DNA of 37,326 nt from an uncultured bacterium. Lineage in GTDB: Bacteria > Patescibacteriota > Microgenomatia > UBA1400 > CAYNFZ01. The notes beneath the pieces are model-generated. The model was not told the DNA's origin. It searched no databases and was given only the letters and a program-made list of their open reading frames with translations. The stretch spans positions 1-37,326 of the forward strand of contig CBDUQH010000001.1 in the NCBI GenBank assembly GCA_965369335.1, written 5' to 3'. Made by a program: the position numbers and the translations under genes. Below are positions 18,038-31,613 of the stretch, in pieces (the first letter of the stretch is position 1; each line of letters begins with the position of its first letter).

Positions 18038-18943
18038 AGGAATACTTTATCAGTTTGGAATGGAATGTTGAATAAGGAATCTGGTAGGTGTTGAAACAAT
18101 TGCCCCCGATAGCAAACGCTTGTTCAATTCGCTCAAACTACCGGGGGTTTTAAAAATCTGCACAGGCTTCTATTTCTAATAAACATACAAGGTGATGCTG
18201 GTGTTGTACTGCGAGCATGTGCAGACCCGCAAGCGGGCAAAAATAATTCACTAGTTGGAAAATTTTGAGAGAGGAGTCAGTTAATATCTTTGGGCTGAAA
18301 CCAACTCCCGGGGCTATTGATCGGTTACAACCTATGTTTGTTTGACAACTCTCAGGTTATAACAAGCTCCTTGTCCGGATTTTCAAAGTGAGGATAGAGC
18401 AAGCTTGGCATTTACCACCAATCGCTCGTGCGCAGCTTGCTCTTTACGATAGGTAAAAGAACTTGAGTTGATGTTGCGCAAACACTAAATCGCTTATTTC
18501 CCAACACAGCGAATATTAAAGTGCTTGATTGGTAGGTTACGTTAGTGAGAGAAAAACTACAATAAGTAGTTGGTGTGGATTCGAGTCAAACTCGATTTAA
18601 AAGCGGTATGGCAAAGTCTAACTTTGCTTTTGTATTGAGCAACTTTAACAGAGGGAGATTTGTTGATTTGAAGTTGGGAAAAACGAAACTGTGTGGTGTG
18701 GGTCGGGTGTTGCTGAGTCTTTGTTGAAGGAACCGATATTTGACCCACACTACACAGTGGAAGATTGCACAAGTGTCTTCTGCTTTGAAGTAGTGATTTC
18801 AAAGAGAAGGGGAGGCTCTTGTGATCTTTTACAAGAGCCTTTAGAGGAATGTAAAAACTTCATTCAAGTGTGCAGGGTGAGTTGATTATATTTTTGATGT
18901 TTTTGGATGTAAAGGGAGAGATTGGTGTGTTTGGTGTGGGGCA

Positions 18944-18985
18944 TCCCGGGGAGATTGATCCCGGGGAAGTTTTCCCCGGGGAGGA
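18944..18985. repeat. Three tandem copies of a ~15-nt unit containing palindromic CCCGGGG
   Basis: TCCCGGGGAGATTGA / TCCCGGGGAAGTTTT / CCCCGGGGAGGATTT, starting at 18944, 18959 and 18974. Confidence 0.8.
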
Positions 18986-19515
18986 TTTTGGGCATGAAAA
19001 ACCCCACCACGTGTCTGTGTTTGTTAGATGTGTATTTTTGCACTAGGGGTTAAGTTTGGGACACGGGTGGGGAGTATTTATCGCTTGCTTGTCGGCTAGC
19101 CCGGGTTTGGTTGTGTAACCAAAGGGCATCGTGACTAGCTACATTGGCAAGCGGGAATATGGGGGCAAGGTTGTGCTGCGGAAGGTCTGCAAAGACTTGG
19201 GTCTTATTGGCTTCAGATTGCGCTTGAGGGCGCGGGTTTGTACTTATGTTGAACTTTTTGCAAAAGGTGGTCTATCTGGTTAGGTCACCGTGTTTTCGGA
19301 TGGGTTTACTGATGTTTGTAATACTGGTGCAGACCTTCCGCCCGACAAAGTCGGCAAAGTTGGGGAGGAGGGTTCTCGAACCGATAAAAGGTGGTTGAGA
19401 ACCCTCGAAGCGCATTGGAAAAGGATAAATGCGGACCCGCTCACAAGGCCAGTGAAACGGGTCTTCCATATGAAAAAAATGAGTTTCAATTTCTCTTTAT
19501 TCGCATAAAAGCAAA

Positions 19516-19543
19516 CTGGTTCTTCTGACCAGCGCTTTTTTTT
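19516..19543 (+). terminator. Possible intrinsic terminator
   Basis: CTGGT-tcttctg-ACCAG, then CGC and TTTTTTTT. The stem is short, so confidence is moderate only. Confidence 0.4.
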
Positions 19544-19713
19544 ACGACTTTTTGTCGAGAAATTCCGCCATGATCATCACCACCGATTATTTTGCCCATT
19601 GCCACCGTCATTTGAACGACTTGGAGGGCCAGTGCCGTGATAGAGAAAGGGATACATAGGAAACCATCCTTTAATATGGATTTTCGAGAAGTGCAACACT
19701 TGTTTTGATTTAA

Positions 19714-19869
19714 GGATTGCACCTTTGGAAAGATATAAAGTCGGTGGGGGGTGAAATGTGAAGTTTTGCGATCCTGAATATCGACTACTTCGCCAAATAC
19801 TATGTGGTATATGTCTTCGTGTTGGTTTTAGGATGACGAAATTTGTATATCCTTTCAGAGGTGCAATCC
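19714..19869 (+). other. 156-nt element closed by a 24-bp imperfect inverted repeat
   Basis: GGATTGCACCTTTGGAAAGATATA (19714-19737) pairs with TATATCCTTTCAGAGGTGCAATCC (19846-19869). That gives 21 Watson-Crick pairs, 2 G-U pairs valid only on the + strand, and 1 A-C mismatch. Confidence 0.7.
19765..19841 (+). repeat. Structured motif copy 1 (stem ATCCTGAA / TTTAGGAT, flanked by ..TTTTGCG and GACGAAA)
   Basis: Shares CTGAATATCG and TTT-AG-[GA]-ATGACGA with copy 2. The stem shows compensatory changes relative to copy 2. Confidence 0.6.
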
Positions 19870-19906
19870 GTTGCTTGTCAATGTTTGTCTATACACAACT
19901 CAATAC

Positions 19907-19954
19907 TTTTCGATTCTGAATATCGGCATAAATGCCGGTTTCAGAATGACGAGA
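19907..19954 (+). repeat. Structured motif copy 2 (stem ATTCTGAA / TTCAGAAT, inner hairpin CGGCA-taaa-TGCCG)
   Basis: Same flanks as copy 1 (CTTTTCG ... GACGAGA) and an 8-bp perfect stem. Confidence 0.6.
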
Positions 19955-20557
19955 TTGGATTGTGTGTAGATTTGTTAGCGATATTTTAATGAGCGTGTTA
20001 CTAAAGGTGTAACGGAGGGATAAATTGTAAGGTGTGTTTTAAATTAGCTTGTGCGAGAGTTTGGATAGCGTGGTCAAAGAGAGAGGGAGAAAAATCGTCG
20101 GTATGTATTTTTTTTATCTCTTGGCCACTAGAAGTCTCCGCACAAGCTTCTTGCAATAAATTTTTTTGGTCCATTCCAAAGTTGTATTGGAGGGACACTA
20201 AGTAGGGAAAACCCAAAGGCTAACCACGCATGATTAGCCTTGGTCCGATGTACTACTTCACAACATTCAGCGACATGGTTTTACGAGTTGTTGAAGTGTA
20301 CATCGCTTCGAGAAATGATACTGGTAACAGTGTTATATTGTTTCATAATAGTCCTTTCTGACTATATAAACGGATGTATAACACGGACACTGGAATAGCG
20401 ACCTAAATAACCATTCCGGTGTCAGTGTTTTAGCAATATAACTGGGTTTTCCCGATTTAAGGTACGGGTGTAACTATAGTGGGCGAGATAAAGATGAGCA
20501 ATGTATAAGAGGTGTGTAAAAATTAGGCCGATAGAGTTGTTTAATGTGTTTTATAGG

Positions 20558-20586
20558 TTGATACCTTGGGAAATGGGGGTTAAAAT
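20558..20586 (+). promoter_or_regulatory. Sigma70-type promoter, TTGATA-N17-TAAAAT
   Basis: TTGATA at 20558-20563 and TAAAAT at 20581-20586. The spacer ends in GGGGGT, as in the other island promoters. Confidence 0.5.
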
Positions 20587-20681
20587 AGGCGTTTGCTAAG
20601 ATTCACATTTTGCAATTTATGCGGGGTGAACCGAAAGCAATTTTTGCCCTTTTAGCCCTTTACCATAAGGAATGGAGAAGA

Positions 20682-21674
20682 ATGGATTTACAGACTTTGT
20701 ATCTGCAGTATCTGGTGTTGTTGTGTTCAAGAGATAAAAACACGATAACAAAGGCTTTTGGTTATGTTGGTAGTATTTCTCAATTTCAGGTTGAGCTGGT
20801 TGTGGAAAGAGACTCGCGGGAATTCGCTTTATATTTCCGTTTTTTTGATAAAGCTGATAGTGAAGTCAATCAATACAACTTGAGTCTGTCCAAGGCTTCA
20901 CTTTCAGAAGCAGTTTTGATCTGGGGAATAGCTGATCAAATGACCAAACTTGATGTGGTAGTGCTGAGTGAGGTGGTGGCGCGTATTCATCACACTGTGG
21001 TTGAATCTGTTAGTGATGATTTACGACGAGCTTTGCCGGTGGGTTTTCAAGTTGCTCTTGATCGGGTTTTTGATCGCTTTGACAAAGATGTCTTGCTGGA
21101 AAAAGTATTGAATCATAGAGGATTGTTTGATCTTTATGATTTGGATGTCTTTTTTGTAAAGTTTGAACACCTGTGGAATGCAGAAGTTTTTGAACCTCTA
21201 AAGATCACTAATCCTCAAAAGTTTATGGCTTTCATTGATGGCTCATGTTTGCTCTTGAAGGATGCTGGGTTGGAAGAGATATTTCACCGTTTTGCTCAGT
21301 ACAAGCAGATATCATATGTCACTGAACTAAAGATTATGGTGGAATTTATCTGTATGCTTGACGATTTCCGTAGAACACCGCCTGTCTTGGTTTTGTGGTG
21401 GACATTGCAGAAGTTTGGGTTAGTCGAAGTAGGTGATCATATTTTTGATTCAGAGTACTTTGGTCCGGTAACTCAGATTTTAGATGATGTTCTAATTTCT
21501 TCTGAAATTTACGTTGTTGAAACAGATATGCCAACGGTATCACCTAAGGTCTCAAGTACAGCAAGCCGTGTTGAACTGACTGAAGACGAAATTGTGCCAA
21601 AGGTACAATCAGACGATGATACAGCCAAATTGTTATTATATTTGGATACGAATGAGACTGCTGCTGTTGGTTAG
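20682..21674 (+). CDS. Island protein 1, acidic cytoplasmic hypothetical
   Basis: The ORF is open from TTG 20610. ATG 20682 is preferred because AAGGAATGGAGA lies just upstream and the promoter sits at 20558-20586. No signal peptide or TM segment. Confidence 0.6.
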   Translation: MDLQTLYLQYLVLLCSRDKNTITKAFGYVGSISQFQVELVVERDSREFALYFRFFDKADSEVNQYNLSLSKASLSEAVLIWGIADQMTKLDVVVLSEVVARIHHTVVESVSDDLRRALPVGFQVALDRVFDRFDKDVLLEKVLNHRGLFDLYDLDVFFVKFEHLWNAEVFEPLKITNPQKFMAFIDGSCLLLKDAGLEEIFHRFAQYKQISYVTELKIMVEFICMLDDFRRTPPVLVLWWTLQKFGLVEVGDHIFDSEYFGPVTQILDDVLISSEIYVVETDMPTVSPKVSSTASRVELTEDEIVPKVQSDDDTAKLLLYLDTNETAAVG

Positions 21675-21704
21675 ACCTCAAACTCCATATTACATGGGCA
21701 AAAA

Positions 21705-21741
21705 AGCCCCCGAAACTACAAATGTAGCTAGGGGGTTTTTT
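21705..21741 (+). terminator. Intrinsic terminator
   Basis: GCCCCC...GGGGG followed by TTTTTT. Confidence 0.65.
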
Positions 21742-21897
21742 GGTAGTTGCTGATATGAGTATGTTTTGATTGTGACCAATTTATGACAGATATGTCGATG
21801 AAGGGTTATTTTTTTGACTTGAGGGTATAATTGGGGTGTTTTGTCCAAGCTTGGTGAGATTTGGATCGAGTTTGGATGCACTTTGACAACCAACATG

Positions 21898-21933
21898 GCT
21901 TCAACTGAGTGAGTGGGGATACTCAATTGAAGC
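21898..21933 (+). promoter_or_regulatory. Leader hairpin upstream of island gene 2
   Basis: GCTTCAACTGAGT-gagtgggga-TACTCAATTGAAGC with one C-A mismatch and a G-rich loop. It lies 30 nt before the ATG. Confidence 0.5.
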
Positions 21934-21963
21934 TGTGTATATATAGAGTAAAAGGACAAAATA

Positions 21964-23238
21964 ATGTCGAAGCAGAACGTTTTAATGCAATTACCGTTTA
22001 AAGCTTTAAAAAAGTATAACTGGGATGATAAGTATTATTCTGGCAAAGCTTCACTGCGATTGGTGAGTCAATACAATCGGCTTTGGTTGGTGCGAGTAAT
22101 CTCCAACAAAAGAGGTGACTTTGAAGTTGGACGATTGAGTCTAGTCAACGCACATCCTGTGTTTGATTTGTATGGATTTATTCGAGTGATGGGATTGATG
22201 CGGCTAGTGTTGACAGAAGTGTTTACGGCGTCGCCCTTTGTTTGGCAGACGGATGCTGATCAAGAAGATGGTGGTTTGCCGAAAAAAGATCAAAGCTGGT
22301 TGATTGGGCTAGGTGAGTTGGCGTCTATTTTAGAAAACATGATTGCTTCTAGAATTGGTGCCGATCAACGACTTAGCCTTGATGAATTGTATGATCCTGA
22401 AGAGCTGACCACATTTGTTGAGAATTGGATTAATTGGGGGTTCTTGCCTGTTTGGCTGCCCAAAGTTTGGGATCAGCTTGACCCAGATGTTTCGGTTCTT
22501 GGTGAGCTTTACAACAAGCAAATGGTAAACAGATTGATGCTTGAGCAGATAAGTTTTTTTGATCAGATGCCTTTGTGGTTGAACTGGCAAGATTGGGAAG
22601 ATGCAGATTCACCAACTATCTTGCAACAAGAAGGTGAATATCTGAAATGGATGATTTTTACCACGGCTAAACAGTTGAAGATGAGTTTTGCCTATGGTAG
22701 TTCTGAGTGGTATCTGGCGACACTAATGTCTGTTTATACCGAAATGGTGCTGATGCGAACTGTTGATTTAGAGGCTCGTATTTCTGGGAAGTTGTTTAAA
22801 TTTGCTGTTCGGATAGCAGATCATTTTGAGTGTGAGCTGATCGAGCTGCTTGAAATTTTGCGTCCATATTGGCAGCATCAATATGATGTTGATTGGGTCG
22901 TTGAAGAGTGGAGTCTGCCAGACCAGAAGAATTGGGAGGGTACTTTTGGATACTTAAATTACCAGTTTGTTTCAGGCAGGTTTGATGCCAGTGGTGAGAG
23001 TTTGGACGATCTTCCCCCTAAATTGGTTGAAGCTTTGGGTGAATATCCTTGTCAGATTGGGATAGAAGCTTGGCGAATATGGAAATATGTGTTGCGCCAA
23101 TTTGGGGATAGGCTTACCAACGATCAAGCTGAGTACTTGAAGTTATGGGTGATTGTGCTTGGTGGTGCAAGACACGATTGCTTTCTATATGACAATATGT
23201 CACTGGTGATGGATGAGCTTGATGTAGCTCACGCCTAA
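21964..23238 (+). CDS. Island protein 2, acidic Trp-rich cytoplasmic hypothetical (424 aa)
   Basis: Long ORF with AAAAGGA 6 nt upstream of the ATG. No recognised domain. Confidence 0.7.
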   Translation: MSKQNVLMQLPFKALKKYNWDDKYYSGKASLRLVSQYNRLWLVRVISNKRGDFEVGRLSLVNAHPVFDLYGFIRVMGLMRLVLTEVFTASPFVWQTDADQEDGGLPKKDQSWLIGLGELASILENMIASRIGADQRLSLDELYDPEELTTFVENWINWGFLPVWLPKVWDQLDPDVSVLGELYNKQMVNRLMLEQISFFDQMPLWLNWQDWEDADSPTILQQEGEYLKWMIFTTAKQLKMSFAYGSSEWYLATLMSVYTEMVLMRTVDLEARISGKLFKFAVRIADHFECELIELLEILRPYWQHQYDVDWVVEEWSLPDQKNWEGTFGYLNYQFVSGRFDASGESLDDLPPKLVEALGEYPCQIGIEAWRIWKYVLRQFGDRLTNDQAEYLKLWVIVLGGARHDCFLYDNMSLVMDELDVAHA

Positions 23239-23276
23239 TATGGTATGAATTTTGACTCTATATGTGGTTGTTTATT

Positions 23277-23313
23277 GACCCCTTTGGCCTAGAGCTGGAG
23301 GGGTTGTTTTTTT
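23277..23313 (+). terminator. Intrinsic terminator (ACCCCT...AGGGGT + T-run)
   Basis: The same sequence recurs at 26828-26864 and 28120-28156. Confidence 0.7.
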
Positions 23314-23362
23314 AAGGATGGTGCTTGTAAGCAGAATTGGAAGTGTTGTTGAATCTATGATA

Positions 23363-23391
23363 TTGAGTGTGGGGTCTTTATGGGTTAGAAT
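23363..23391 (+). promoter_or_regulatory. Sigma70-type promoter, TTGAGT-N17-TAGAAT
   Basis: TTGAGT at 23363-23368 and TAGAAT at 23386-23391. Confidence 0.5.
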
Positions 23392-23452
23392 TTGGTGCTT
23401 TGGCGTTGCCTGTTGGCGGCAGTTAAAGCGCACTTTGACATCTGGTAGTTTA

Positions 23453-23493
23453 GGTTTCACATAGCGAGCTGGGGGAGTTGGCTATGTGAAATC
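23453..23493 (+). promoter_or_regulatory. Leader hairpin (13-bp stem, 15-nt G-rich loop)
   Basis: GGTTTCACATAGC-gagctgggggagttg-GCTATGTGAAATC, including one G-U pair valid on the + strand. It is followed by CTAAGTTTAGA and RBS AAGGA. Confidence 0.65.
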
Positions 23494-23520
23494 TAAGTTT
23501 AGAGATAAGGATAATGAAAG

Positions 23521-24543
23521 ATGTTTAATGCGTATTTACGATTGCTTCAGGAAGAAAGTGGTATGAATTTGGGGCAGATGCGGAATCATATTGAGCAAGA
23601 GCATGAAAAGGCTCTTGCTGCGTTGACTCCAAAAATCTTGCGTCAAAGTAGTCTTCGTCAGGTTGTGTTTCACGGTTTGGATGGTGAAGTGGAAACTGGA
23701 GAGCGATGTTTAGTGGTCTACGTGGTTTTGGGACGAATTTGTTTTGGTGCAGTTAAACATCCTGATGATTTGTGGAAAAGCCGTGGGCAAACCGAATTTG
23801 GTGAAGTTAAGTCTTACTTCGACATGATTCGTCACTGGAAGCTGATGTCGAAGATTAACACAATGTCTCAAGAAATGTTTGATTTGATTGGTGAGGCAAT
23901 TAGCGTGGGAGGAGATCCAGAAGATCAACAGAAATTGATCAATATGGTTGGGCGTAAAGCCTTTGATGAAGCCATGATTATCGATAAAGAAACTGTGGAT
24001 CAATATTTGGAACTATTGGTTGACGGTCTTGTGTGGGGCACACAGTTGTCGCGTGAAGTTCATCGTGGAATGCTAAAGTGGCAAGATCGGTTTGAAGAGT
24101 ATCGCCAATATGCTGTGTTAGATCCTGATGAATGGCTGGAGCGGCTGGCGTTTACTTGTGGTGATGATGCCATTGAACTGATGTCCACGTTGGCTGATAC
24201 ACTCAGTGGTAAGGACGAAGAAGAAATGCAGCTATTTTTTACCTCCCTTAGCCAAGCCGTAGAGCGTGGTTTTGGATATGTTTTCGATTGTGGGTTTGCA
24301 TCGCGTGAAGATGTGTCTGTGGCAATGGCTCACTATTGTGGGTTGCTATGGACATTGATTCGAAGTGATATAGTGTATGAACTGCTGGAATTTTCGGATA
24401 CAGAATCGTTGGATATTGTGGTCATGGATACTATTTATGACTACTATGGTGAGGAATCGTTGGGAAGCAAAGAGCAATGTCGGCAATTGTGTGAGACGTT
24501 GTGGAAAAACCACGAATCTTTGCTGGGAAATCATGACGAATAA
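23521..24543 (+). CDS. Island protein 3 (paralogue of 27063-28079)
   Basis: 340 aa. Shares KWQDRFEEYRQY, GFGYVFDCGFA and NHESLL with the 27063 product. Confidence 0.8.
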   Translation: MFNAYLRLLQEESGMNLGQMRNHIEQEHEKALAALTPKILRQSSLRQVVFHGLDGEVETGERCLVVYVVLGRICFGAVKHPDDLWKSRGQTEFGEVKSYFDMIRHWKLMSKINTMSQEMFDLIGEAISVGGDPEDQQKLINMVGRKAFDEAMIIDKETVDQYLELLVDGLVWGTQLSREVHRGMLKWQDRFEEYRQYAVLDPDEWLERLAFTCGDDAIELMSTLADTLSGKDEEEMQLFFTSLSQAVERGFGYVFDCGFASREDVSVAMAHYCGLLWTLIRSDIVYELLEFSDTESLDIVVMDTIYDYYGEESLGSKEQCRQLCETLWKNHESLLGNHDE

Positions 24544-24573
24544 TCCTTGGTAATCTACTACCTGTATGTTAAT

Positions 24574-24610
24574 GACCCCTTTGGACGATGTGCCTGAGGG
24601 GTTGTTTTTT
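24574..24610 (+). terminator. Intrinsic terminator
   Basis: ACCCCT..AGGGGT followed by TGTTTTTT. Confidence 0.65.
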
Positions 24611-24626
24611 GTGTGTACCCTATAGT

Positions 24627-24655
24627 TTGAGATTGGGGTTGTTATGGGGTAAAAT
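24627..24655 (+). promoter_or_regulatory. Sigma70-type promoter, TTGAGA-N17-TAAAAT
   Basis: TTGAGA at 24627-24632 and TAAAAT at 24650-24655. The spacer ends in ATGGGG. Confidence 0.5.
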
Positions 24656-24700
24656 CGGTGTCTGTTCGGCACTTTAAAAGATTTCTTGTGAAGGAGAACT

Positions 24701-24748
24701 AGGACACAAATAGCTAGAGGCTACTTGGCCTTTGGCTATTTGTGTCCT
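24701..24748 (+). promoter_or_regulatory. Leader hairpin (14-bp perfect stem; different sequence, same position)
   Basis: AGGACACAAATAGC...GCTATTTGTGTCCT, followed by the same CTAAGTTTAGA box and an AGGAG RBS. Confidence 0.65.
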
Positions 24749-24773
24749 AAGTTTAGACAGGAGAATGAAGGTA

Positions 24774-25640
24774 ATGAAAGTTTTGCATCGTGAGTATGTA
24801 AGTGGGTTTGGGTTTCTTGGCAAACATGTTGCTGTTGAGATTATCCTAAGTCTTCCAGAAACCGGAGGGCGTTATGAGTTGGCGATAAAGTATGGTAAGC
24901 AAGGTGGAGTCACTGAGACTTACAAGTATGCTGACGTTGATTTTTGTATCATCGTGTTTAGAATGCTTCTGACCTACAATCGACAGCTGAAGGTCAGTGA
25001 AGATGCTGCTTATGCAAGCGTGTATTCTTCTTTGTTGCAATTCGGTAGTTATGACAAGGTTGATCCGAATTTAGTTAATGCTTTGGGGCTTGAACCTTTT
25101 GAGGTTATTAATCAGCCTTTCGAAGGTTGGGAAGAAGAAGTGATTAATGAACAAGCCTTGGCTGGGAACTTTGATCTACACGCGGTTAGTATTTTGGTTG
25201 ACCATGGGATGTTGAAGCTTCGAGAAGAACTTGAAAGTAAGTTAGCAGAAGCTATGGCTGATTTTGAAAGTTGGCTTGATGCCACTGGATTAAATAACTT
25301 GTTTGACCTATTGGAGCCAAGCGAAGTGTTTTCCATCTTTGCGACTGAACGGGCAGCTTTGATCAGAACTTCATTTGTTATTTGGGACAAAGGTGAAGAA
25401 ATTCATGCTAATCAATCTAGTCATGTGATTGCTTTGGCTGTGTTGATTCGGTGCAATAGTGCCGTTTCCTTTCATGGTTCAAAACAAAATCTCAAAAGTA
25501 AAGCTAACTCTCTTGGGATTTTAATGATGCTGCCTTTCGTTTGGTCTAGCTATGATCTTCCCGGTGATCAGAATATTGATCAAATCGTGCAAGAAACGTT
25601 GGATTTTCTGGATTTACTGAAGCAATCTAGCGAACTGTAG
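24774..25640 (+). CDS. Island protein 4, acidic cytoplasmic hypothetical
   Basis: The ORF is open from TTG 24732, which would put the start inside the leader hairpin. ATG 24774 is preferred (AGGAG at 24759-24763); ATG 24765 is an alternative. Confidence 0.65.
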   Translation: MKVLHREYVSGFGFLGKHVAVEIILSLPETGGRYELAIKYGKQGGVTETYKYADVDFCIIVFRMLLTYNRQLKVSEDAAYASVYSSLLQFGSYDKVDPNLVNALGLEPFEVINQPFEGWEEEVINEQALAGNFDLHAVSILVDHGMLKLREELESKLAEAMADFESWLDATGLNNLFDLLEPSEVFSIFATERAALIRTSFVIWDKGEEIHANQSSHVIALAVLIRCNSAVSFHGSKQNLKSKANSLGILMMLPFVWSSYDLPGDQNIDQIVQETLDFLDLLKQSSEL

Positions 25641-25662
25641 AACTACAAAATCCTATGTGCCG

Positions 25663-25702
25663 ATAACCCTTTTGGAGAAAATTCCGAAAGGGTTATTTTT
25701 TT
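25663..25702 (+). terminator. Intrinsic terminator
   Basis: ATAACCCTTT / AAAGGGTTAT 10-bp stem followed by T6. Confidence 0.7.
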
Positions 25703-25788
25703 GGCTTGAAAGGCTATAATTGGGTGGATTTGTCAGGCTACTTTTGTTTGCAAAAGATAGTTTGAGTTCTTTAACAGACAAAGAGGCA

Positions 25789-25829
25789 GGTTTCACATAG
25801 CGAACTGGGGGAGTTGGCTATGTGAAATC
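25789..25829 (+). promoter_or_regulatory. Leader hairpin (same sequence as the 26994 copy)
   Basis: GGTTTCACATAGC-gaactgggggagttg-GCTATGTGAAATC. A TATAAT box lies at 25715-25720 upstream. Confidence 0.65.
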
Positions 25830-25856
25830 TGAACAAATAGTAGATTGGATAATCTA

Positions 25857-26798
25857 ATGAAGTTTTTTGGTTTGTACCCTGTAGTGGGTAAGTGTAATGT
25901 TCCTGACAATGTAATATATTGGCCTCCAAAGATACCTTTGTTTTCAGAGAAAACCTGGGCTGGTTTGGGTAGCTTTGATACTAAGGTAATGATGCAATTT
26001 TTGCTCCAAGTTGTGGATGGTGAGCTGTGCATTGTTGCCCAGAAGGATGGTGATTTTTCAGGTGAGGTGTATTTGCGTTATCGTGATAAGCGTTTTAATA
26101 ACCCCTTAAACTTCTTCGACCTAATTCGGGTTTGTGATGCAGCTAATGCTAGTAAGCGGATAAGCCCCACGCTGTTTATGTCATTGGTTTTTTGGCTGTG
26201 TAAGGGTGATGAACACAGCGGTGCGCTTGCTTTAGAACAAGTCTTGCAGAACAAGGATTGGATGGCAGATGACATTAGTCGGCAAGAATTGGACTATTAT
26301 CATTTGTTGTTGGTCCAAGGTTTGGTTGAAGGTGTGGATCTTGTGGAGTCGAAAGCGCGTTTGGCTTCATACATTGACCTCGAAGAAACTTTGAAGGAGA
26401 TGAAGAGGTTTGGGGTGATGAATAAAGCTGAAGTGCTTAATATTGCTGAATTTGTGTCGGAAACTTATGACCAAATCATTTGGCGTTTTGAAGGGTTTTT
26501 GCAAACTCGTCAGGTCATTATACAAAAAGCAATATTGTCTGGGTTCAAATGGGCTTATGCACGGGGGTTGTATTTTGATCCCAAATTGGCACATTTTGCT
26601 CATTTTAACGCTATGTTGTGGATATTGTTGGAGAACGACGTTGATTTGGAAACGGCTCAAGAACTGGTGGCGGAGTTTTTGGTGGATGAACGAGGAATGG
26701 GTGATAGCCACGCGAACTTTTTTGCAGGGTTGGGGCAATTTCGGATTGGCTACTATAACCACTATGGTTGGGAAGTGCCGGTGCCGGCTGATTCTTAG
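25857..26798 (+). CDS. Island protein 5 (distant paralogue of proteins 3 and 6)
   Basis: The track starts at TTG 25845; ATG 25857 is an alternative. Three motifs align with proteins 3 and 6: FFDLIRV, YHLLLVQGLVEGVDL and GFKWAYARGLYF. Confidence 0.7.
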   Translation: MKFFGLYPVVGKCNVPDNVIYWPPKIPLFSEKTWAGLGSFDTKVMMQFLLQVVDGELCIVAQKDGDFSGEVYLRYRDKRFNNPLNFFDLIRVCDAANASKRISPTLFMSLVFWLCKGDEHSGALALEQVLQNKDWMADDISRQELDYYHLLLVQGLVEGVDLVESKARLASYIDLEETLKEMKRFGVMNKAEVLNIAEFVSETYDQIIWRFEGFLQTRQVIIQKAILSGFKWAYARGLYFDPKLAHFAHFNAMLWILLENDVDLETAQELVAEFLVDERGMGDSHANFFAGLGQFRIGYYNHYGWEVPVPADS

Positions 26799-26827
26799 CT
26801 TGTTTCTCTCTCTTTGTTTAGTTGATT

Positions 26828-26864
26828 AACCCCTTTGGCCTAGAGCTGGAGGGGTTGTTTTTTT
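26828..26864 (+). terminator. Intrinsic terminator
   Basis: AACCCCT...AGGGGTT followed by GTTTTTTT. Confidence 0.7.
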
Positions 26865-26903
26865 GTGGATGTTCTTGCCGAGAAGCTATTTGAATCTAAG
26901 GGT

Positions 26904-26932
26904 TTGAGTGTAGAGGCTTTATGGGTTAGAAT
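26904..26932 (+). promoter_or_regulatory. Sigma70-type promoter, TTGAGT-N17-TAGAAT
   Basis: TTGAGT at 26904-26909 and TAGAAT at 26927-26932. Confidence 0.5.
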
Positions 26933-26993
26933 TTGGTGCTTTGGCGTTGCCTGTTGGCGGCAGTTAAAGCGCACTTTGACATCTGGTAGTTTA

Positions 26994-27034
26994 GGTTTCA
27001 CATAGCGAACTGGGGGAGTTGGCTATGTGAAATC
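26994..27034 (+). promoter_or_regulatory. Leader hairpin
   Basis: Same as 23453-23493 except for one loop base. Confidence 0.65.
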
Positions 27035-27062
27035 TAAGTTTAGAGATAAGGATTAGCTCATT

Positions 27063-28079
27063 ATGTCAGGAAGTGATTTTTTGGTAATTTTTAAAGCTGA
27101 TGCAGAAATGACATTGCGCGAAATGCAAGACTTTTTTCGCCAAAAGCATGATGAAGTACAAGAGCTTTTGAATCCAGAAATCTTGCGTCAGTGTTCCCCC
27201 AGGACGGTTAAGTTGGAATCTGAGAATGGCGATTTGATCGAAAAGGAAGTTGTTATCATCGTTTACAAGGTTAAGGGTCAAATTCGTATAGATGCCGTTG
27301 AAAGAGCTGATGACTTGATCGATCTGAAACATCCAATGAACTTTGGTGAGATTGACTCGTTTTTCGATGCGATCCGCCATTGGACTTTGTTGTGTCAAAT
27401 CAATGAAGTGTCGCAAGAAGTGTTTGATCTGATTAATGAAGCCATTAGTGTGGAAGGTAGTCCGGAAGTACGTGATCAGTTGGTACGTAGAGTGGGGCAA
27501 ACATCGTTTGATTTGGCGATGTATGTTGACACGTTGACGATGAATCAATACCTGACACTTTTGGAGGAAGGGGTGGCTTTAGGTGCCCAATTGTCCCTTG
27601 AAGTTCATTGGGGAAGGATTAAATGGCAAGATCGGTTTGAAGAGTATCGCCAGTACGGAGTGTTAAGCCCAGAAGAATGGCAGGAGCGAGTGGAATTTAC
27701 CACAAGCGATGAAGTCATTGGTTTGATGTCTGAAGTGGCTGCTTTTGTTGCCGGTGATGATGGAGTGTTTGATCATGCTTTTGAAGCGTTGAATCTTGCC
27801 TGTGGTCTTGGGTTTGGGTATGTTTTCGATTGTGGTTTTGCCCAGCGTGAAGATGTTTCTTTGTACACAAAGCTTCTTATTGGTTTGTGGGAAACTGTGA
27901 ATAACAGTGATTTTGTCTCAGAGATTTTTAGTGTCCTTGATTCAAAAGATCAAGGTTTGGCTCTTGCTGGAGTGATGGTGGAGTATTTTGGTACGGGTTC
28001 GATTGGGGAAGTATCAGAATTCCTGAAACAAGCATTGTTACTTTGGGAGAACCATGAATCTTTGTTGGTAGAGGATTAA
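27063..28079 (+). CDS. Island protein 6 (paralogue of 23521-24543)
   Basis: 338 aa, collinear with protein 3 along its whole length. Confidence 0.8.
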   Translation: MSGSDFLVIFKADAEMTLREMQDFFRQKHDEVQELLNPEILRQCSPRTVKLESENGDLIEKEVVIIVYKVKGQIRIDAVERADDLIDLKHPMNFGEIDSFFDAIRHWTLLCQINEVSQEVFDLINEAISVEGSPEVRDQLVRRVGQTSFDLAMYVDTLTMNQYLTLLEEGVALGAQLSLEVHWGRIKWQDRFEEYRQYGVLSPEEWQERVEFTTSDEVIGLMSEVAAFVAGDDGVFDHAFEALNLACGLGFGYVFDCGFAQREDVSLYTKLLIGLWETVNNSDFVSEIFSVLDSKDQGLALAGVMVEYFGTGSIGEVSEFLKQALLLWENHESLLVED

Positions 28080-28119
28080 TCCTTAGAAGTTCGTTGACTC
28101 TAACTATCAGAATGTTATT

Positions 28120-28156
28120 AACCCCTTTGGCCTAGAGCTGGAGGGGGTGTTTTTTT
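28120..28156 (+). terminator. Intrinsic terminator (third copy of the ACCCCTTTGGCCTAGAGCTGGAGGGG element)
   Basis: Lies between the convergent island gene 6 and the RND gene. Confidence 0.7.
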
Positions 28157-28187: not shown

Positions 28188-31100
28188 TTATTTGTTTTCG
28201 TCAAAGAATTCGATGTAGATGGTGGGGAGAAGGACGAGGATAAGGATACCTGAAACAGAGAGTCCAGCGATGATTGAGCCACCAAGACCTCTCCAAAGTG
28301 GATCGGAAAGGGTGATGGGAAGTAGTCCTGCACTAGTGGTGAGGGAGGTGAGAAAGATGGGTTCCAAACGAGAGCTACAAGCGTCGACGACTGCGTCTAG
28401 AACTTTGAAACCTTGTTTGAGGTTTTGGTTGATTTTTTCCACAAGCATGATGGAGTTGTTGACCACGATTCCAAATAGAGCTAAGACACCGATAAGGGCA
28501 GGGAATGAAAGAGGGATACCAAAGATGGTGAAGTTGAAAAAGACTCCAGCAACGGCTAGGGGGATAACGATCATGACAATGGCGGCTTTTCTAAATGACT
28601 CGAGTTGAAGCACCATGGTCAGCAAAATGAGAATGAAAGAGAGGGTCATGGCTTGGAGGATGGAGTTGACTGATTCTTGGTTCTCTTCGTTGGCTCCACC
28701 CGTATCCCAAGTGTAGCCAAGTGGCATTTGGTACTGGTTGGCCTTGTCTTCAAATTGAGCCAGGATTTGAGTGGATGGGACGCCTTTGGCGGCGGCGGTG
28801 ACACTAACAACTCTTTGAGAATCTTCTCTAACGATGCTAACAGGAGTGTTTTCGAGAGAGAGAGTAGCGACTTCACCAAGTGTGTAGTTGCCAAGTTGGC
28901 TGGGCAAAGGTAGGTTTTGAAGCATGTCGATGGTTTGGTCTTGGTCTCTTAGAGTGACGGTGATGTCTTGATCTTTGTCGCCAAGGCTAATGGTGCTAGC
29001 TTCAGTGCCAGACAAAGCGGTTCTGAGCCAGCCACCTACTTGAGCTGCACTGAGGCCTCTTTTTTGGAGTTCTTGAGGGATAAGGTTGACTCTGACTTCA
29101 CCTGATGAGAGTTTGAGTGAAGTGTCAATGTTGATAGCGCCTTCGATGCCTCCAAGAATATCCATAAAGTCGTTGGCGATGGTTTCTAGTTGGTCTAGTT
29201 CCTCACCTTTAATGTTGATTTGGAAGTCTGCACCAGCAGGTGGTCCACCAGATAGTTCAGCCACGGTGATTTTGGCATCTTGGATTGAGGTGACTTTTTG
29301 TCTGATCTCATCGGCAATGTCGATTGAAGACCTGTTTCTTTGGTCGTCTTTAACTAGAGTAACGGCTATGGTGGAGGCGTTGGATCCAGAAGCACCACCG
29401 CCAAGACCGTCGGGGTCAAAGCTAGCACCGGTTAAACTGATAATAGATTTGATTTCTGGAATGTCAGTGATTAAAGTTTCTGTTCTTTCAGTAATGGCTT
29501 CTGTAGTTTCAACAGGAGATCCAGCTGGAGATTGGATATTAATGTAGATGTTTTCGGAGTCGGTAGCGGGAAAGAACTCGTTTTTGAGAAGGCCTGTGAA
29601 CATAAAGGCGAAACTAAGAGCCACAAAGCCAGCAGTGGCAAAATAGACTCTATATCTGAGCTTTTTATATCTGAGGATTTTTTCGAGGAATTTTCGATAA
29701 CGATTGGAGACAACTGAAAAATCAATTAGCCCAGAGTTAACTAGATCTGAAGTGTTAATGTTGGGGATGTGGTTTTTGAACTTAATTAGTTTAGCAGTAG
29801 TTGGGTTTTTGGCCCAGGACTTTAGGTGAGATTTAGTCTTTTTGATGAGTTGTGGATATTTAGATGAAAAATATTTGGATAATTGTTTTCTTGAAATAAA
29901 GCTGAGTATGGATAGGGTGATAAAAGTGAGGCTAACTAAAGGTGTGAGTGGAGAGTTTTTGGCAAGTGAGTTGACCATAAAAAAGATGCCGAGGAATACA
30001 AGTAGGAGGGTAAAGTTTTTGACTCTTGGAGGTAGTTTTAGATCGGCAAAGATGGTGGTCAGGGGGATGTTTAATAAGACAGCCAAAGTGGTTGATGAGA
30101 GTAAGGTGGCTGAAACGACGATGGGGATGGATTTGATGAACTCACCGATGATGCCTGTAGCCAGAAGAAGAGGAAGGAATGCCCAGACAGTGGTGAGGGT
30201 GGTGGTCCAAATTGGAACCACAAAGTCTCGATAGACAAGTAGGCCAGCTTGGACGGGAGAGAATTTTTTACCGTAGTTGTTGGCAGCTTGGACGATCACG
30301 ATAGCATCATCGACAACCAAACCAAGTGCCAGTAGCAAAGAGAATAGAGATAGGAAGTTTAAGGTAATTCCCAAAGCGTTCATGATGACAAAGGCTGAAA
30401 GGAAAGTCAGGGGGATGGAAACCGAAGCAATACCTGCTTGTCTAAGTCCAAGGAAAGTAAATAACAACAGGAAGACTAAGATGATGGTTGATCGGAAGTT
30501 TGAACCGAGCTCATTAAACGACTCTTCAACTGATTCGGCTTGGTTGAGGACGTTTAGATAGTGAATGGAGGGGTTTTGTGAAACTTCTGCTTCAAGGATC
30601 TCTTCTGCAGTATTGACTGAGTCGGAGATGGTGGCGTTGTTGGATTTGTAGATGTCTAGTTGGATGGTGGGAACTCTTTGGTCGTTGGAGATACGGTTGT
30701 AGGCAAGAGAGTTAGTGTCTTTGGTTTGATAATAAACGTCGGCTATTTCACCAAGGGCAATAGATGATTGGCCGACTTGGATAGGCAGACTTCTGACTTG
30801 ATCGATGGTAGTGAATTCGTTGTTGACTGAAAGGGTGTACTCCAATTGCCCGGCTTGGATGGAACCTGCGGGTAGGGTGAGATTGTTGGCCTTGATGGTG
30901 CCAGTAATGGCTTCTGGGCTAACTTGGTATCTAGCTAGAGTTTCGTGTTTGAGTTTAATGGCGATTTCTTCTTCGAGTTCGCCGCTTAGAGTGACACGTC
31001 TGATATCGGATGTGGCTTCGAGTTTGTCGGCTAGGTCTTCGGTAATTTTGGTGAGTGCGATTCTGTTGATATCGCCGTAGACAGCTACAGTCCAGATGGG

Positions 31101-31559
31101 TTGTTCATTAAAGTCTAGCTTGCTGACTCGAGGGTCAGAAGCATCTTCTGGTAGGTCTGTGACTAGATCGACTTTTTCTCTGACCTTGTCTAAGGCTTCG
31201 TCGGGGTCTTCGGTGCTGATAAATTGGGCAGTGATGACCGAGACGCTGTTGCTTGAACTGGAAGATAATAGATCAATGGTGGCTATATCGCTGACTTCGG
31301 TCTCGATTTTTTTGGTGACAAGTTTTTCAACGTCTGTGGGTGAGGCCCCGGGTAGGGTGGTGACTACATTGACGATAGGGATGTCTACTTGAGGGTTGAG
31401 TTCTCTAGGTAGAGTTAAGAAAGAACCAACACCGGCAATAATTAAGGCTAAGATAGCCAAGATGACTAAGCGGACGTTTTTGATGAGCCCATGCATAAAA
31501 GAGTTTTTTAGCTTGGGGTCAAATTTGAGTTGGTCTAGATAGAGAGAGTCTGTGTTCAT
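28188..31559 (-). CDS. RND superfamily efflux transporter permease (AcrB-like)
   Basis: 1123 aa with the 12-TM, two-large-loop architecture. The N-terminus (NVRLVILAILALIIAGVGSFLTLPRELNPQVDIPIVNVVTTLPGASP) and VDDAIVIV motif are typical of the family. Confidence 0.85.
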   Translation of the reverse strand: MNTDSLYLDQLKFDPKLKNSFMHGLIKNVRLVILAILALIIAGVGSFLTLPRELNPQVDIPIVNVVTTLPGASPTDVEKLVTKKIETEVSDIATIDLLSSSSSNSVSVITAQFISTEDPDEALDKVREKVDLVTDLPEDASDPRVSKLDFNEQPIWTVAVYGDINRIALTKITEDLADKLEATSDIRRVTLSGELEEEIAIKLKHETLARYQVSPEAITGTIKANNLTLPAGSIQAGQLEYTLSVNNEFTTIDQVRSLPIQVGQSSIALGEIADVYYQTKDTNSLAYNRISNDQRVPTIQLDIYKSNNATISDSVNTAEEILEAEVSQNPSIHYLNVLNQAESVEESFNELGSNFRSTIILVFLLLFTFLGLRQAGIASVSIPLTFLSAFVIMNALGITLNFLSLFSLLLALGLVVDDAIVIVQAANNYGKKFSPVQAGLLVYRDFVVPIWTTTLTTVWAFLPLLLATGIIGEFIKSIPIVVSATLLSSTTLAVLLNIPLTTIFADLKLPPRVKNFTLLLVFLGIFFMVNSLAKNSPLTPLVSLTFITLSILSFISRKQLSKYFSSKYPQLIKKTKSHLKSWAKNPTTAKLIKFKNHIPNINTSDLVNSGLIDFSVVSNRYRKFLEKILRYKKLRYRVYFATAGFVALSFAFMFTGLLKNEFFPATDSENIYINIQSPAGSPVETTEAITERTETLITDIPEIKSIISLTGASFDPDGLGGGASGSNASTIAVTLVKDDQRNRSSIDIADEIRQKVTSIQDAKITVAELSGGPPAGADFQINIKGEELDQLETIANDFMDILGGIEGAINIDTSLKLSSGEVRVNLIPQELQKRGLSAAQVGGWLRTALSGTEASTISLGDKDQDITVTLRDQDQTIDMLQNLPLPSQLGNYTLGEVATLSLENTPVSIVREDSQRVVSVTAAAKGVPSTQILAQFEDKANQYQMPLGYTWDTGGANEENQESVNSILQAMTLSFILILLTMVLQLESFRKAAIVMIVIPLAVAGVFFNFTIFGIPLSFPALIGVLALFGIVVNNSIMLVEKINQNLKQGFKVLDAVVDACSSRLEPIFLTSLTTSAGLLPITLSDPLWRGLGGSIIAGLSVSGILILVLLPTIYIEFFDENK

Positions 31560-31613
31560 GTGAGTTCAAAGTTTAAAGTGTAAAGTTAAAAGTTGAAAAG
31601 TGGGGATAAGGGA

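What the first reader, a model, noticed from the sequence alone, without database searches (positions are those of the whole stretch)
20558..28156. Six-gene tandem array of divergent acidic proteins, each a self-contained transcription unit
Six consecutive + strand ORFs of 288-424 aa sit at 20682-21674, 21964-23238, 23521-24543, 24774-25640, 25857-26798 and 27063-28079.

**Proteins.** None has a signal peptide, TM segment or catalytic motif I can recognise. All are D/E-rich and several are W-rich.
- The 23521 and 27063 products are obvious full-length paralogues, sharing KWQDRFEEYRQY, GFGYVFDCGFA and NHESLL.
- The 25857 product aligns to them more distantly: FFDLIRV vs YFDMIRHW, YHLLLVQGLVEGVDL vs YLELLVDGLVWGTQL, and GFKWAYARGLYF vs GFGYVFDCGFA.
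- The other three share the general layout, with an N-terminal beta-like segment (FDLYGFIRV in protein 2, DFCIIVFRML in protein 4) followed by a long helical acidic part. Their homology is not provable by eye.

**Transcription units.** Every gene is followed by a GC-stem/T-run terminator and preceded by a long leader. This is unusual for a compact genome, where a single operon would be expected. Four genes have a clean TTGAxx-N17-TAxAAT promoter; the other two have a TATAAT box without a clear -35.

**Interpretation.** Arrays of divergent, individually controlled cytoplasmic paralogues are known for immunity-protein repertoires and anti-defence or effector sets. I cannot place this family in any described system.
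Basis: partly seen in the sequence, partly recalled or inferred. Interest (0 to 1): 0.8.

Follow-up and report, generated by a model that had tools for sequence, protein, structure and literature searches.

The report
Orphan gene array sharing hairpin leaders
Six neighbouring genes of unknown function in an uncultured Patescibacteria-like bacterium are real, but what ties five of them together, and links them to similar genes in two related genomes, is a conserved hairpin-containing leader in front of each gene rather than the proteins, most of which resemble nothing known.

Summary
The six + strand ORFs exist as described. Only three are demonstrable paralogues: P3/P6 at 44% identity, with P5 distant. 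P1, P2 and P4 match neither the trio nor each other. No curated family matches any of the six. An exhaustive profile search of the trio against 1.84 billion representatives found only themselves. The acidity and Trp content are mostly a strand effect, because the contig has extreme GC skew.

Each gene has a GC-stem/T-run terminator and a plausible promoter. The new result concerns the non-coding parts.
- The P3 and P6 promoter-plus-5'UTR are 97% identical over 150 nt, while their coding sequences are near synonymous saturation (dS ~1.7).
- P2-P6 share a homologous leader: a box GCACYTTNAMA, then an 18-24 bp hairpin ending 13-25 nt before the start.
- The hairpin covaries strongly (10 of 18 pairs compensatory).
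- The leader recurs before unrelated orphan ORFs at the same position, downstream of a conserved RND efflux operon, in two relatives.

Best reading: a lineage-specific, variable locus of monocistronic, co-regulated genes built on a conserved regulatory frame kept uniform by gene conversion. Protein function is unknown. The immunity or anti-defence idea has no support. P1 is only a neighbour.

The parts
20558..20586 (+). P1 promoter-like site TTGATA-17-TAAAAT
   Evidence: consensus match only
20682..21674 (+). P1 CDS, 330 aa orphan. GGAG Shine-Dalgarno (SD) sequence before the ATG. No hairpin leader, so it is a neighbour rather than a demonstrable member.
   Evidence: leader fold z -0.2; no R1 hit
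21701..21741 (+). P1 terminator, A-run/GCCCCC...GGGGG/T-run hairpin
   Evidence: dG -22.2, z -3.2
21826..21831 (+). P2 -10 box TATAAT. It is preceded by a remnant of a P4-type terminator 3' arm plus T-run (21801-21822), a module shared with the P4-P5 spacer (IG4).
   Evidence: (D9, D11)
21876..21966 (+). P2 leader element: box GCACTTTGACA, then hairpin 21893-21938, then SD. Found by covariance model R1, although it was not in the seed.
   Evidence: (28.7 bits, E 6e-4)
21964..23238 (+). P2 CDS, 424 aa orphan, 4.7% Trp
23276..23313 (+). P2 terminator CCCCTTTGGCCTAGAGCTGGAGGGG plus T-run. 36 of 36 nt identical to the P5 terminator.
23363..23391 (+). P3 promoter-like site TTGAGT-17-TAGAAT. This is where the 150 nt block 97% identical to the P6 unit begins.
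23428..23523 (+). P3 leader element: box GCGCACTTTGACA, hairpin 23447-23499, SD AAGGA
23521..24543 (+). P3 CDS, 340 aa, paralogue of P6 and P5
24571..24610 (+). P3 terminator, a variant of the CCCCTTTGG...GGGG hairpin plus T-run
   Evidence: (D2)
24627..24655 (+). P4 promoter-like site TTGAGA-17-TAAAAT
24667..24776 (+). P4 leader element: box GGCACTTTAAAA, then a 23 bp hairpin at 24700-24749 with compensatory changes relative to the P3 type
   Evidence: (z -8.5)
24774..25640 (+). P4 CDS, 288 aa orphan
25662..25704 (+). P4 terminator, 16 bp stem plus T7
   Evidence: dG -24.2, z -5.8
25715..25720 (+). P5 -10 box TATAAT, same module as upstream of P2
25764..25859 (+). P5 leader element: box GTTCTTTAACA, then hairpin 25787-25831 whose 43 nt core (25788-25830) is identical to P6's
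   Evidence: (D3)
25857..26798 (+). P5 CDS, 313 aa, distant paralogue of P3 and P6
26827..26864 (+). P5 terminator
26904..26932 (+). P6 promoter-like site TTGAGT-17-TAGAAT
26969..27065 (+). P6 leader element with hairpin 26988-27040
27063..28079 (+). P6 CDS, 338 aa, paralogue of P3
28122..28156 (+). P6 terminator, convergent with the end of the RND pump gene
28188..35199 (-). Conserved syntenic block that anchors the locus: M50 peptidase, a 205 aa protein, a membrane-fusion protein, and an AcrB-type RND pump

Best explanation
The region is a lineage-specific, variable locus in an uncultured Patescibacteria (CPR)-like bacterium. It lies just downstream of, and convergent with, a conserved M50 / membrane-fusion protein / RND pump operon.

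**What it consists of**
- Five monocistronic genes (P2-P6), plus one unrelated orphan neighbour (P1).
- Each of the five is built on the same non-coding frame:
  - a sigma-70-type promoter;
  - a 5' UTR of about 125-135 nt carrying a box GCACYTTNAMA;
  - an 18-24 bp hairpin that ends 13-25 nt before the start codon and leaves the Shine-Dalgarno sequence free;
  - the ORF;
  - a GC-rich intrinsic terminator.

**How it evolves**
- The frame is older and far better conserved than the proteins.
- Within the genome it is kept uniform by gene conversion.
- It recurs in related genomes in front of orphan ORFs with no recognisable similarity.
- Three of the proteins (P3, P5, P6) arose by duplication and are under purifying selection.
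- The others have either diverged beyond recognition or are unrelated ORFs placed in the same frame.

**Inferred, not shown**
- The hairpin probably acts in the sense mRNA as a shared post-transcriptional element. It could be a stabilising or processing stem, or the binding site of a common regulator.
- This would give the set one expression programme, while the terminators insulate each unit.
- The proteins are probably soluble cytoplasmic accessory proteins that evolve fast. Their biochemical function is unknown.
For: **Genes are real**
- ORF length statistics and dN/dS ~0.3 for P3/P6.

**Frame more conserved than the coding sequence**
- P3/P6 coding sequences are 57% identical in nucleotides, with dS ~1.7.
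- 150 nt of promoter plus leader are 97% identical, and the terminators are 36/36 identical.
- These repeats occur nowhere else in the window.

**Hairpin**
- Leader folds of P2-P6 give z -5.3 to -8.5.
- Of 113 genes in 176 kb of this and related genomes, the seven most structured upstream regions are P3-P6 plus the three AcrB-adjacent orphans of L002 and L003. P2 ranks 12th.
- Covariation: 18 pairs, 97.8% paired, 10 pairs changed on both sides, 0 of 500 shuffles as high, slid controls at most 3.
- Some pairs are G-U on the sense strand, and folds are more stable on that strand.

**Leader homology**
- Model R1, built from the P3-P6 leaders, finds the P2 leader at E 6e-4.
- It finds the L003 332-aa gene's leader as the top hit at E 0.009.
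- The box aligns in all eight leaders.

**Synteny and copy number**
- The M50 / x / MFP / AcrB block is conserved.
- One hairpin-led orphan follows AcrB in L002, two in L003, five here, and none in more distant relatives.

**Orphan status**
-.

**Taxon**
- The best named AcrB relatives are Patescibacteria and Candidatus Dojkabacteria, at 41-49% identity. The nearest unnamed ones are at 60-64%.
Against: - No transcript data, so promoters, 5' ends and termination are predictions. Promoter-like motifs are not enriched over chance.
- The leader matches in L002 (E 5.9) and before the L003 133-aa gene (E 1.5) are not significant on their own. Cross-genome conservation rests mainly on one significant hit, plus position, fold rank and the box.
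- The sense-strand preference for G-U pairs could be a by-product of the extreme G+T excess of that strand. A role as a DNA hairpin or palindrome is therefore not excluded.
- Only three independent hairpin types enter the covariation count.
- P1, P2 and P4 were never properly searched against the large protein collections. My concatenated query was void.
- Nothing indicates what the proteins do.
Confidence: 0.5

Rival explanations
1. The array is a repertoire of immunity, anti-defence or effector proteins engaged in inter-organism conflict. Individually expressed paralogues would diversify under an arms race.
For: - The proteins evolve fast and are lineage-restricted, with no homologue in 1.84 billion representatives.
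- Copy number varies between relatives.
- The locus sits at a synteny breakpoint.
Against: - No PADLOC, Pfam, NCBIfam or PHROGs hit.
- No toxin, secretion-system, phage or mobile-element gene in the 37 kb contig.
- P3/P6 show purifying rather than diversifying selection overall, with dN/dS ~0.3.
- The proteins are 288-424 aa, larger than typical immunity proteins (my own knowledge of those families).
Confidence: 0.15
2. The conserved hairpins are DNA-level elements of a mobile or recombination system: REP/RAYT-type or IS200/IS605 ends, MITEs, or integron attC-like sites. The ORFs would be cargo or cassettes shuffled by a recombinase encoded elsewhere.
For: - Near-identical short palindromic modules sit next to diverged ORFs.
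- A remnant half-terminator in the P1-P2 spacer (IG1) suggests recombination junctions.
- An IS200-like Y1 transposase lies right after AcrB in the distant relative L006.
- Leader-like hairpins without a long ORF occur in L001.
Against: - No integrase, transposase or recombinase among the window's ORFs of 120 aa or more.
- The hairpin flanks do not fit the attC cores RYYYAAC and GTTRRRY (reading).
- The repeats are confined to the array within the contig.
- The hairpin keeps a fixed distance to the SD and start codon, and units carry their own promoters. This fits an expression element.
Confidence: 0.1
3. The array is a phase- or antigen-variation-type multigene family, analogous to the Mycoplasma vsp/vlp or Borrelia erp families. 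A conserved 5' region would serve switching or common repression.
For: - A conserved promoter and 5' UTR sit in front of divergent coding regions in tandem, with concerted evolution of the 5' part.
Against: - No signal peptide, lipobox or transmembrane segment in any of the six (reading).
- No site-specific recombinase in the contig.
- No homopolymer or short tandem repeat inside a promoter spacer. The only T-runs are terminator tails.
- All units have an intact promoter, so there is no single expression site.
Confidence: 0.05
4. The array is a remnant of a prophage or other foreign island: 'moron'-like units, each made of a promoter, a gene and a terminator.
For: - The promoter / gene / terminator units match the classical definition of morons (my own knowledge).
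- The proteins are orphans.
Against: - No PHROGs hit below E 0.001.
- No tblastn match in 50,697 phage or 72,556 plasmid records.
- The leader pattern is absent from viral contigs except for chance hits.
- GC content and GC skew match the rest of the contig.
- The locus is positionally conserved in relatives.
Confidence: 0.05

Closest known systems
Bacterial multigene families with a conserved 5' regulatory region and divergent coding parts (e.g. Mycoplasma vsp/vlp/vpma loci, Borrelia erp genes); recalled from my own knowledge, not tested
   Same: - Tandem genes, each with its own highly conserved promoter and 5' UTR.
- Coding regions much more divergent than the 5' region.
- Concerted evolution of the non-coding part.
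   Different: - Those families encode surface lipoproteins with conserved signal peptides. They switch by recombinases or slipped-strand tracts.
- Here there is no export signal, no recombinase and no slippage tract.
- The conserved element here is a long covarying hairpin.
5' UTR stabiliser stem-loops of Gram-positive mRNAs (e.g. ermC, aprE leader, cryIIIA STAB-SD); my own knowledge
   Same: - A stable stem-loop in the 5' UTR that does not occlude the Shine-Dalgarno sequence.
- A G-rich, SD-like loop (CUGGGGGAG in P3, P5 and P6).
   Different: - Those elements act at or near the very 5' end of the transcript, and are single cases rather than a family-wide module.
- Here the main hairpin lies about 50 nt into the predicted leader.
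- No stability data exist for this locus.
Phage 'morons' (promoter / gene / terminator insertions)
   Same: Each gene is flanked by its own promoter and factor-independent terminator.
   Different: - No phage context and no phage homologues.
- Five units share one homologous frame and sit at a conserved chromosomal position.
Integron gene-cassette arrays
   Same: - Co-oriented array of unrelated ORFs separated by structured repeats.
- In those repeats, structure is conserved more than sequence.
   Different: - No intI, and no attC core sites.
- The cassettes here carry their own promoters and T-run terminators.

Membership tests
Single paralogous protein family comprising all six ORFs | Significant pairwise or profile similarity between all members | tested here: not met
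   - Only P3-P6 (E 5e-93) and P3-P5 (E 4e-6) are significant.
- hhalign of the trio profile against P1, P2 and P4 gives probability below 1%.
- Smith-Waterman z is at most 3, the same as controls.
Single paralogous protein family comprising all six ORFs | Shared fold | tested here: inconclusive
   - AlphaFold2 models of P3 and P2 have pLDDT 46 and 39.
- The secondary-structure order is similar in both, but Foldseek is meaningless on such models.
Hairpin-leader units (the grouping proposed here) | Box GCACYTTNAMA plus a long covarying hairpin ending 13-37 nt before the start codon | tested here: met
   - P2-P6 are matched by model R1.
- The hairpin covaries.
- P1 is not matched.
Known cis-regulatory RNA families (Rfam 15) | Match at or near a family's gathering score | tested here: not met
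   - No hit at gathering thresholds.
- In E-value mode only miRNA-precursor models far below threshold, which are generic hairpin hits.
Integron cassette array | IntI tyrosine recombinase and attI nearby | tested here: not met
   No integrase-family Pfam hit among the 26 ORFs scanned from the contig (every ORF of 120 aa or more that does not lie within a longer ORF). The contig is only 37 kb.
Integron cassette array | attC sites with RYYYAAC and GTTRRRY cores; promoterless cassettes | tested here: not met
   - Hairpin flanks read TAGG...CCTA or TCTA.
- Units carry promoter-like sites and T-run terminators.
Polymorphic-toxin immunity repertoire | Linked toxin or toxin-fragment genes; membership of known immunity families | tested here: not met
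   - No toxin domain in the contig.
- No Pfam or NCBIfam hit for any of the six.
Known anti-phage defence systems (PADLOC 2.0) | Significant match to a defence-system model | tested here: not met
   The best hits are RT models at E 0.005-0.05 over about 40-60 residues. They are not significant.
Variable surface lipoprotein families (vsp/vlp type) | Signal peptide or lipobox; recombinase or slippage tract for switching | tested here: not met
   - The N-termini lack signal or lipobox features (reading).
- No recombinase.
- No repeat tract in the promoters.
Diversity-generating retroelement targets | Reverse transcriptase plus a template/variable repeat pair | tested here: not met
   - No RT gene.
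- The repeat search shows no TR/VR-like pair.
REP/RAYT or IS200/IS605 hairpin elements | Y1 transposase in the genome; hairpins dispersed in many intergenic regions | tested here: inconclusive
   - No Y1 transposase in the window, and the hairpins are confined to the array.
- Only 37 kb of the genome is visible.
- A Y1_Tnp gene follows AcrB in the distant relative L006.
Prophage morons | Location inside a prophage; phage homologues | tested here: not met

The most novel reading that the evidence does not exclude
A Patescibacteria lineage maintains a conserved non-coding 'expression frame': promoter, structured 5' UTR with a covarying hairpin, and terminator. This frame outlives its coding content.
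- At a fixed chromosomal site next to an RND efflux operon, the frame is duplicated and homogenised.
- It is filled with ORFs that turn over, or diverge beyond recognition, between genera.
- The hairpin would be a new class of cis-regulatory RNA, or a recombination handle.
- The locus would be a dedicated site for generating and expressing novel proteins, for example for host interaction in an episymbiont.
Probability: 0.2. Interest if true: 0.8.

Novelty: new variant of a known kind. Interest (0 to 1): 0.5.

Why it matters
**What is unusual**
- Patescibacteria genomes are small and full of orphan genes, with almost no handle on their regulation or function.
- Here the handle is non-coding. 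A leader element with strong covariation marks a small set of orphan genes, is conserved across genomes where the proteins are not, and is kept uniform inside one genome.

**What it would offer if confirmed**
- A searchable RNA motif to collect such genes across the radiation.
- A testable post-transcriptional control element.
- A clean example of regulatory sequence evolving far more slowly than the genes it drives.

**Caution for sequence-based annotation**
- In a replicon with GC skew above 0.3, 'acidic, Trp-rich' composition follows from strand alone and should not be read as a family signature.

**Limit**
- Without any functional clue for the proteins, the finding is descriptive.

Tried and rejected
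**Protein family and structure searches**
- Pfam, NCBIfam, PADLOC and PHROGs on all six proteins gave nothing significant.
- A PDB sequence search found nothing.
- AlphaFold2 models of P3 (3-sequence alignment) and P2 (single sequence) were too poor to use, with pLDDT 46 and 39. Foldseek on the P3 model had no hit at E <= 0.001 and TM below 0.25.

**Searches of the large collections**
- The P3 search of 5.8 billion proteins returned only P3 itself and P6.
- The exhaustive profile search of the trio returned only the trio, plus a spurious helical-repeat protein P0004.
- I concatenated P1+P2+P4 to save a capped search. It returned nothing, not even P2 and P4, which are in the collection.
- Metagenome scans with a leader DNA pattern and with P2 found nothing.
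- tblastn against phage and plasmid records found no match.

**Viral contigs**
- The first leader pattern gave 0 hits.
- A degenerate pattern gave 29 hits, all chance according to the covariance model.

**Attempts to link the orphans by sequence**
- I tried to link the orphans of L002 and L003 to the array proteins.
- A collinear FD..R..W motif gives P ~0.002-0.003, but unrelated controls score the same. This is rejected as proof.

**History and remnants**
- Block duplication of (P2,P3) into (P5,P6), inferred from intergenic similarity, is rejected as an inference. The intergenic parts are homogenised and say nothing about history, and P2 and P5 show no similarity.
- No remnants of array genes lie in the 2.5 kb ORF-less gap.

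**Alternative promoters**
- Promoters using the box TTGACA as a -35, or GATAAT just before the ATG as a -10, are not conserved between units (reading).

Full report
**1. What is there**

The window is a whole 37,326-base contig known from a single assembly. It encodes ordinary cellular genes:
- an MFS transporter, a 2-hydroxyacid dehydrogenase and an ArsP-type permease;
- UPF0182 and a Pro/Ser-rich surface protein;
- on the right, an M50 peptidase, a 205-aa protein, a membrane-fusion protein and an AcrB-type RND pump;
- NAD synthase.

No tRNA gene and no Rfam family was found. The nearest AcrB relatives are 60-64% identical and unnamed. Named ones, at 41-49%, are 'Patescibacteria group bacterium' and 'Candidatus Dojkabacteria'. 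The organism is therefore an uncultured CPR-type bacterium without close sampled relatives. Even its UPF0182 and NAD synthase are singleton clusters.

**2. The six ORFs**

- They lie at the coordinates given.
- With stop codons at 0.067 per codon on this strand, 288 open codons has P ~2e-9.

**3. Relationships between the proteins**

- P3 and P6 are full-length paralogues: 44% identity, E 5e-93.
- Their dN is ~0.50 and dS ~1.7, so dN/dS is ~0.3. They are old duplicates under purifying selection.
- P5 is a distant member: E 4e-6, Smith-Waterman z 12.6 against P3.
- P1, P2 and P4 match nothing:
  - BLASTP finds no match with E below 0.2, and none to the trio below 1;
  - hhalign probability is below 1%;
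  - Smith-Waterman z is at most 3, as for unrelated controls.
- Low-confidence AlphaFold2 models of P3 and P2 show the same order of elements: a few N-terminal strands, a helix bearing the FD..R motif, then an all-helical part. Foldseek on such a model is uninformative.

**4. No known family, no homologues**

- Pfam, NCBIfam, PADLOC, PHROGs and PDB sequences give nothing significant.
- The word-indexed search of 5.8 billion proteins with P3 returned only P3 and P6.
- An exhaustive hmmsearch with the P3/P5/P6 profile against 1.84 billion representatives returned only these three, plus a spurious match to a helical-repeat protein.
- Phage and plasmid records have no tblastn match.
- Caveat: my economy query of concatenated P1+P2+P4 failed technically. 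It did not even recover P2 and P4, which are in the collection. Those three proteins were therefore not properly searched in the large collections.

**5. Composition**

- The contig has an extreme strand asymmetry, with GC skew 0.325 overall.
- At third codon positions the skew is +0.4 to +0.6 in + strand genes and -0.73 in - strand genes.
- + strand genes are consequently enriched in residues encoded by G/T-rich codons.
- D+E is 13-16% and W is 1.6-2.3% on the + strand, against 8.8% and 1.0% on the - strand.
- The 'acidic, W-rich' character of the array is thus shared with other + strand genes. It is not a family signature.

**6. Transcription-unit anatomy**

- All six genes end with a GC stem plus T-run, dG -16.8 to -24.2.
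- Stems this long are rare in the rest of the contig.
- Four units have TTGAnn-17-TAnAAT sites. P2 and P5 share a different module containing TATAAT.
- Promoter-like matches are not more frequent than in shuffles. Their support comes from position and from conservation between units.

**7. The main new result: the non-coding frame**

- The intergenic modules are repeated, and only within the array.
- From the -35 hexamer to 8 nt before the start codon, the P3 and P6 units are 97% identical over 150 nt.
- The P2 and P5 terminators are 36/36 identical, and the P5 and P6 hairpins 43/43.
- The P3/P6 coding sequences are only 57% identical, with near-saturated synonymous sites.
- Neutral non-coding DNA of that age would be randomised. 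The frame must therefore be homogenised by gene conversion, held by selection, or both.

**8. The leader hairpin**

- The leaders of P2-P6 each contain a very stable hairpin, with fold z -5.3 to -8.5. The P1 leader does not (z -0.2).
- The hairpin has 18-24 bp and ends 13-25 nt before the start codon in this window (up to 37 nt in L003). It leaves the SD unpaired.
- The P3/P5/P6 type and the P4 type differ by compensatory changes.
- A box GCACYTTNAMA precedes the hairpin in every unit.
- A covariance model built from the P3-P6 leaders recovers the P2 leader, which was not in the seed. The match covers the full length, at 28.7 bits and E 6e-4 in 176 kb.
- The model finds nothing at P1 or elsewhere in the window.

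**9. Relatives**

I fetched contigs of nine AcrB relatives.
- The M50 / x / MFP / AcrB block is syntenic.
- What follows AcrB varies:
  - in the two closest relatives, convergent orphan ORFs follow: L002 has one of 350 aa, and L003 has one of 332 aa and one of 133 aa;
  - further out, there are housekeeping genes, an M48 peptidase, or an IS200-like gene.
- None of these orphans is detectably similar to the array proteins.
- A collinear FD..R..W motif is suggestive, but unrelated controls score the same.
- Their flanks nevertheless have the same anatomy: promoter, box, long hairpin, SD, ORF, GC/T-run terminator.
- Among 113 genes in 176 kb, the seven most structured upstream regions are exactly P3-P6 and these three orphans.
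- With filters off, the model's best hit in 46 kb of relatives is the L003 332-aa gene's leader, at E 0.009 with all pairs standard. The other two leaders are not significant, at E 1.5 and 5.9.
- On an alignment of P3-P6 and the L003 leader, 18 pairs are 97.8% paired and 10 have changes on both sides. No shuffle out of 500 reaches this, and slid registers give at most 3.
- L001 carries leader-like hairpins followed by no long ORF.

**10. Interpretation**

- The locus is a variable, lineage-specific site next to a conserved efflux operon.
- It holds one, two or five genes built on a shared regulatory frame that is older than any recognisable protein similarity.
- P1 is an adjacent orphan with its own promoter and terminator, but without the leader.
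- I infer that the hairpin works in the mRNA, for three reasons:
  - some pairs are G-U on the sense strand;
  - its spacing to the SD is fixed;
  - the SD is left free.
- It would act as a common stabilising or processing stem, or as a regulator-binding site. The terminators would insulate the units.
- The sense-strand bias could also follow from the G+T excess of that strand. A DNA-level role is therefore not excluded.
- What the proteins do is unknown. Nothing supports immunity, anti-defence, integron, DGR, phase-variation or prophage readings (see the membership table), although a conflict-related role cannot be excluded for orphans.

**11. Verdict**

- The 'six paralogues' claim shrinks to three. 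The 'self-contained units' claim stands on sequence grounds.
- The interesting feature has moved from the proteins to a conserved, covarying leader that is not in Rfam.
- It is a new variant of a known kind: a multigene locus with a concertedly evolving regulatory region.
- Interest is moderate, limited by the lack of any functional clue and of transcript data.

Noticed in passing
window 1-37326: Extreme strand asymmetry. GC skew is 0.325 overall and up to 0.52 per kb. Third-codon-position skew is +0.4 to +0.9 in + strand genes and -0.5 to -0.9 in - strand genes. The asymmetry visibly shapes amino-acid composition: + strand genes are rich in D, E, G, V and W, and - strand genes in P, T, Q, N and K. 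Relatives L002 and L001 show the same sign but weaker skew.
   Followed up: partly
window 18100-20600: A 2.5 kb stretch with no ORF above about 110 aa in any frame. It contains several strongly structured segments (18640-19090, 19340-19490 and 19840-20390, z about -4 to -7) and a 27 bp hairpin at 18688-18758. There is no Rfam hit, no remnant of the array genes, no leader-model hit, and no similarity to the relatives' loci.
   Followed up: partly
window 34191-34257: A 28 bp near-perfect hairpin (dG -34.8 on the + strand) lies in the 640 nt spacer between the 205 aa gene and the M50 peptidase gene. The homologous 198-205 aa genes in L001 and L002 also have rather structured upstream regions.
   Followed up: no
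L001 18760-18873 and 19381-19432: Two long hairpins lie in a 1.2 kb ORF-less region of a relative. The first is preceded by the box GTTCTTTAACAGA, identical to the one before P5. The second is followed by an SD and only a 37 aa ORF. They may be decayed or minimal units of the same kind.
   Followed up: partly
L006 13791-14291 (- strand): An IS200-like Y1 transposase gene with an adjacent hairpin lies immediately downstream of the AcrB homologue in a more distant relative. This is the position the array occupies here.
   Followed up: no
window 8505-12800: Three further + strand orphans have long spacers and no Pfam hit: a 725 aa protein with 6.6% Cys, a 125 aa protein with 22% D+E and 5.6% Trp, and a 453 aa protein. 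They lack the leader element.
   Followed up: no
window 16538-18037 (- strand): A surface-type protein has long Pro/Ser/Thr-rich low-complexity regions, a weak DUF4394 match and a C-terminal LPEAG motif followed by a hydrophobic tail. This resembles a sortase signal, which would fit a monoderm envelope.
   Followed up: no
window 13266-16184 vs L002 8210-10993: The UPF0182 proteins of the window and of L002 are only 28% identical, and the gene is inverted relative to AcrB. The neighbouring AcrB proteins are 64% identical. They may be paralogues, or this gene may evolve unusually fast.
   Followed up: no
window 23514-23528: A 4-codon ORF (ATGAAAGATGTTTAA) overlaps the P3 start codon out of frame. 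It is absent before P6 despite the otherwise near-identical leader.
   Followed up: no
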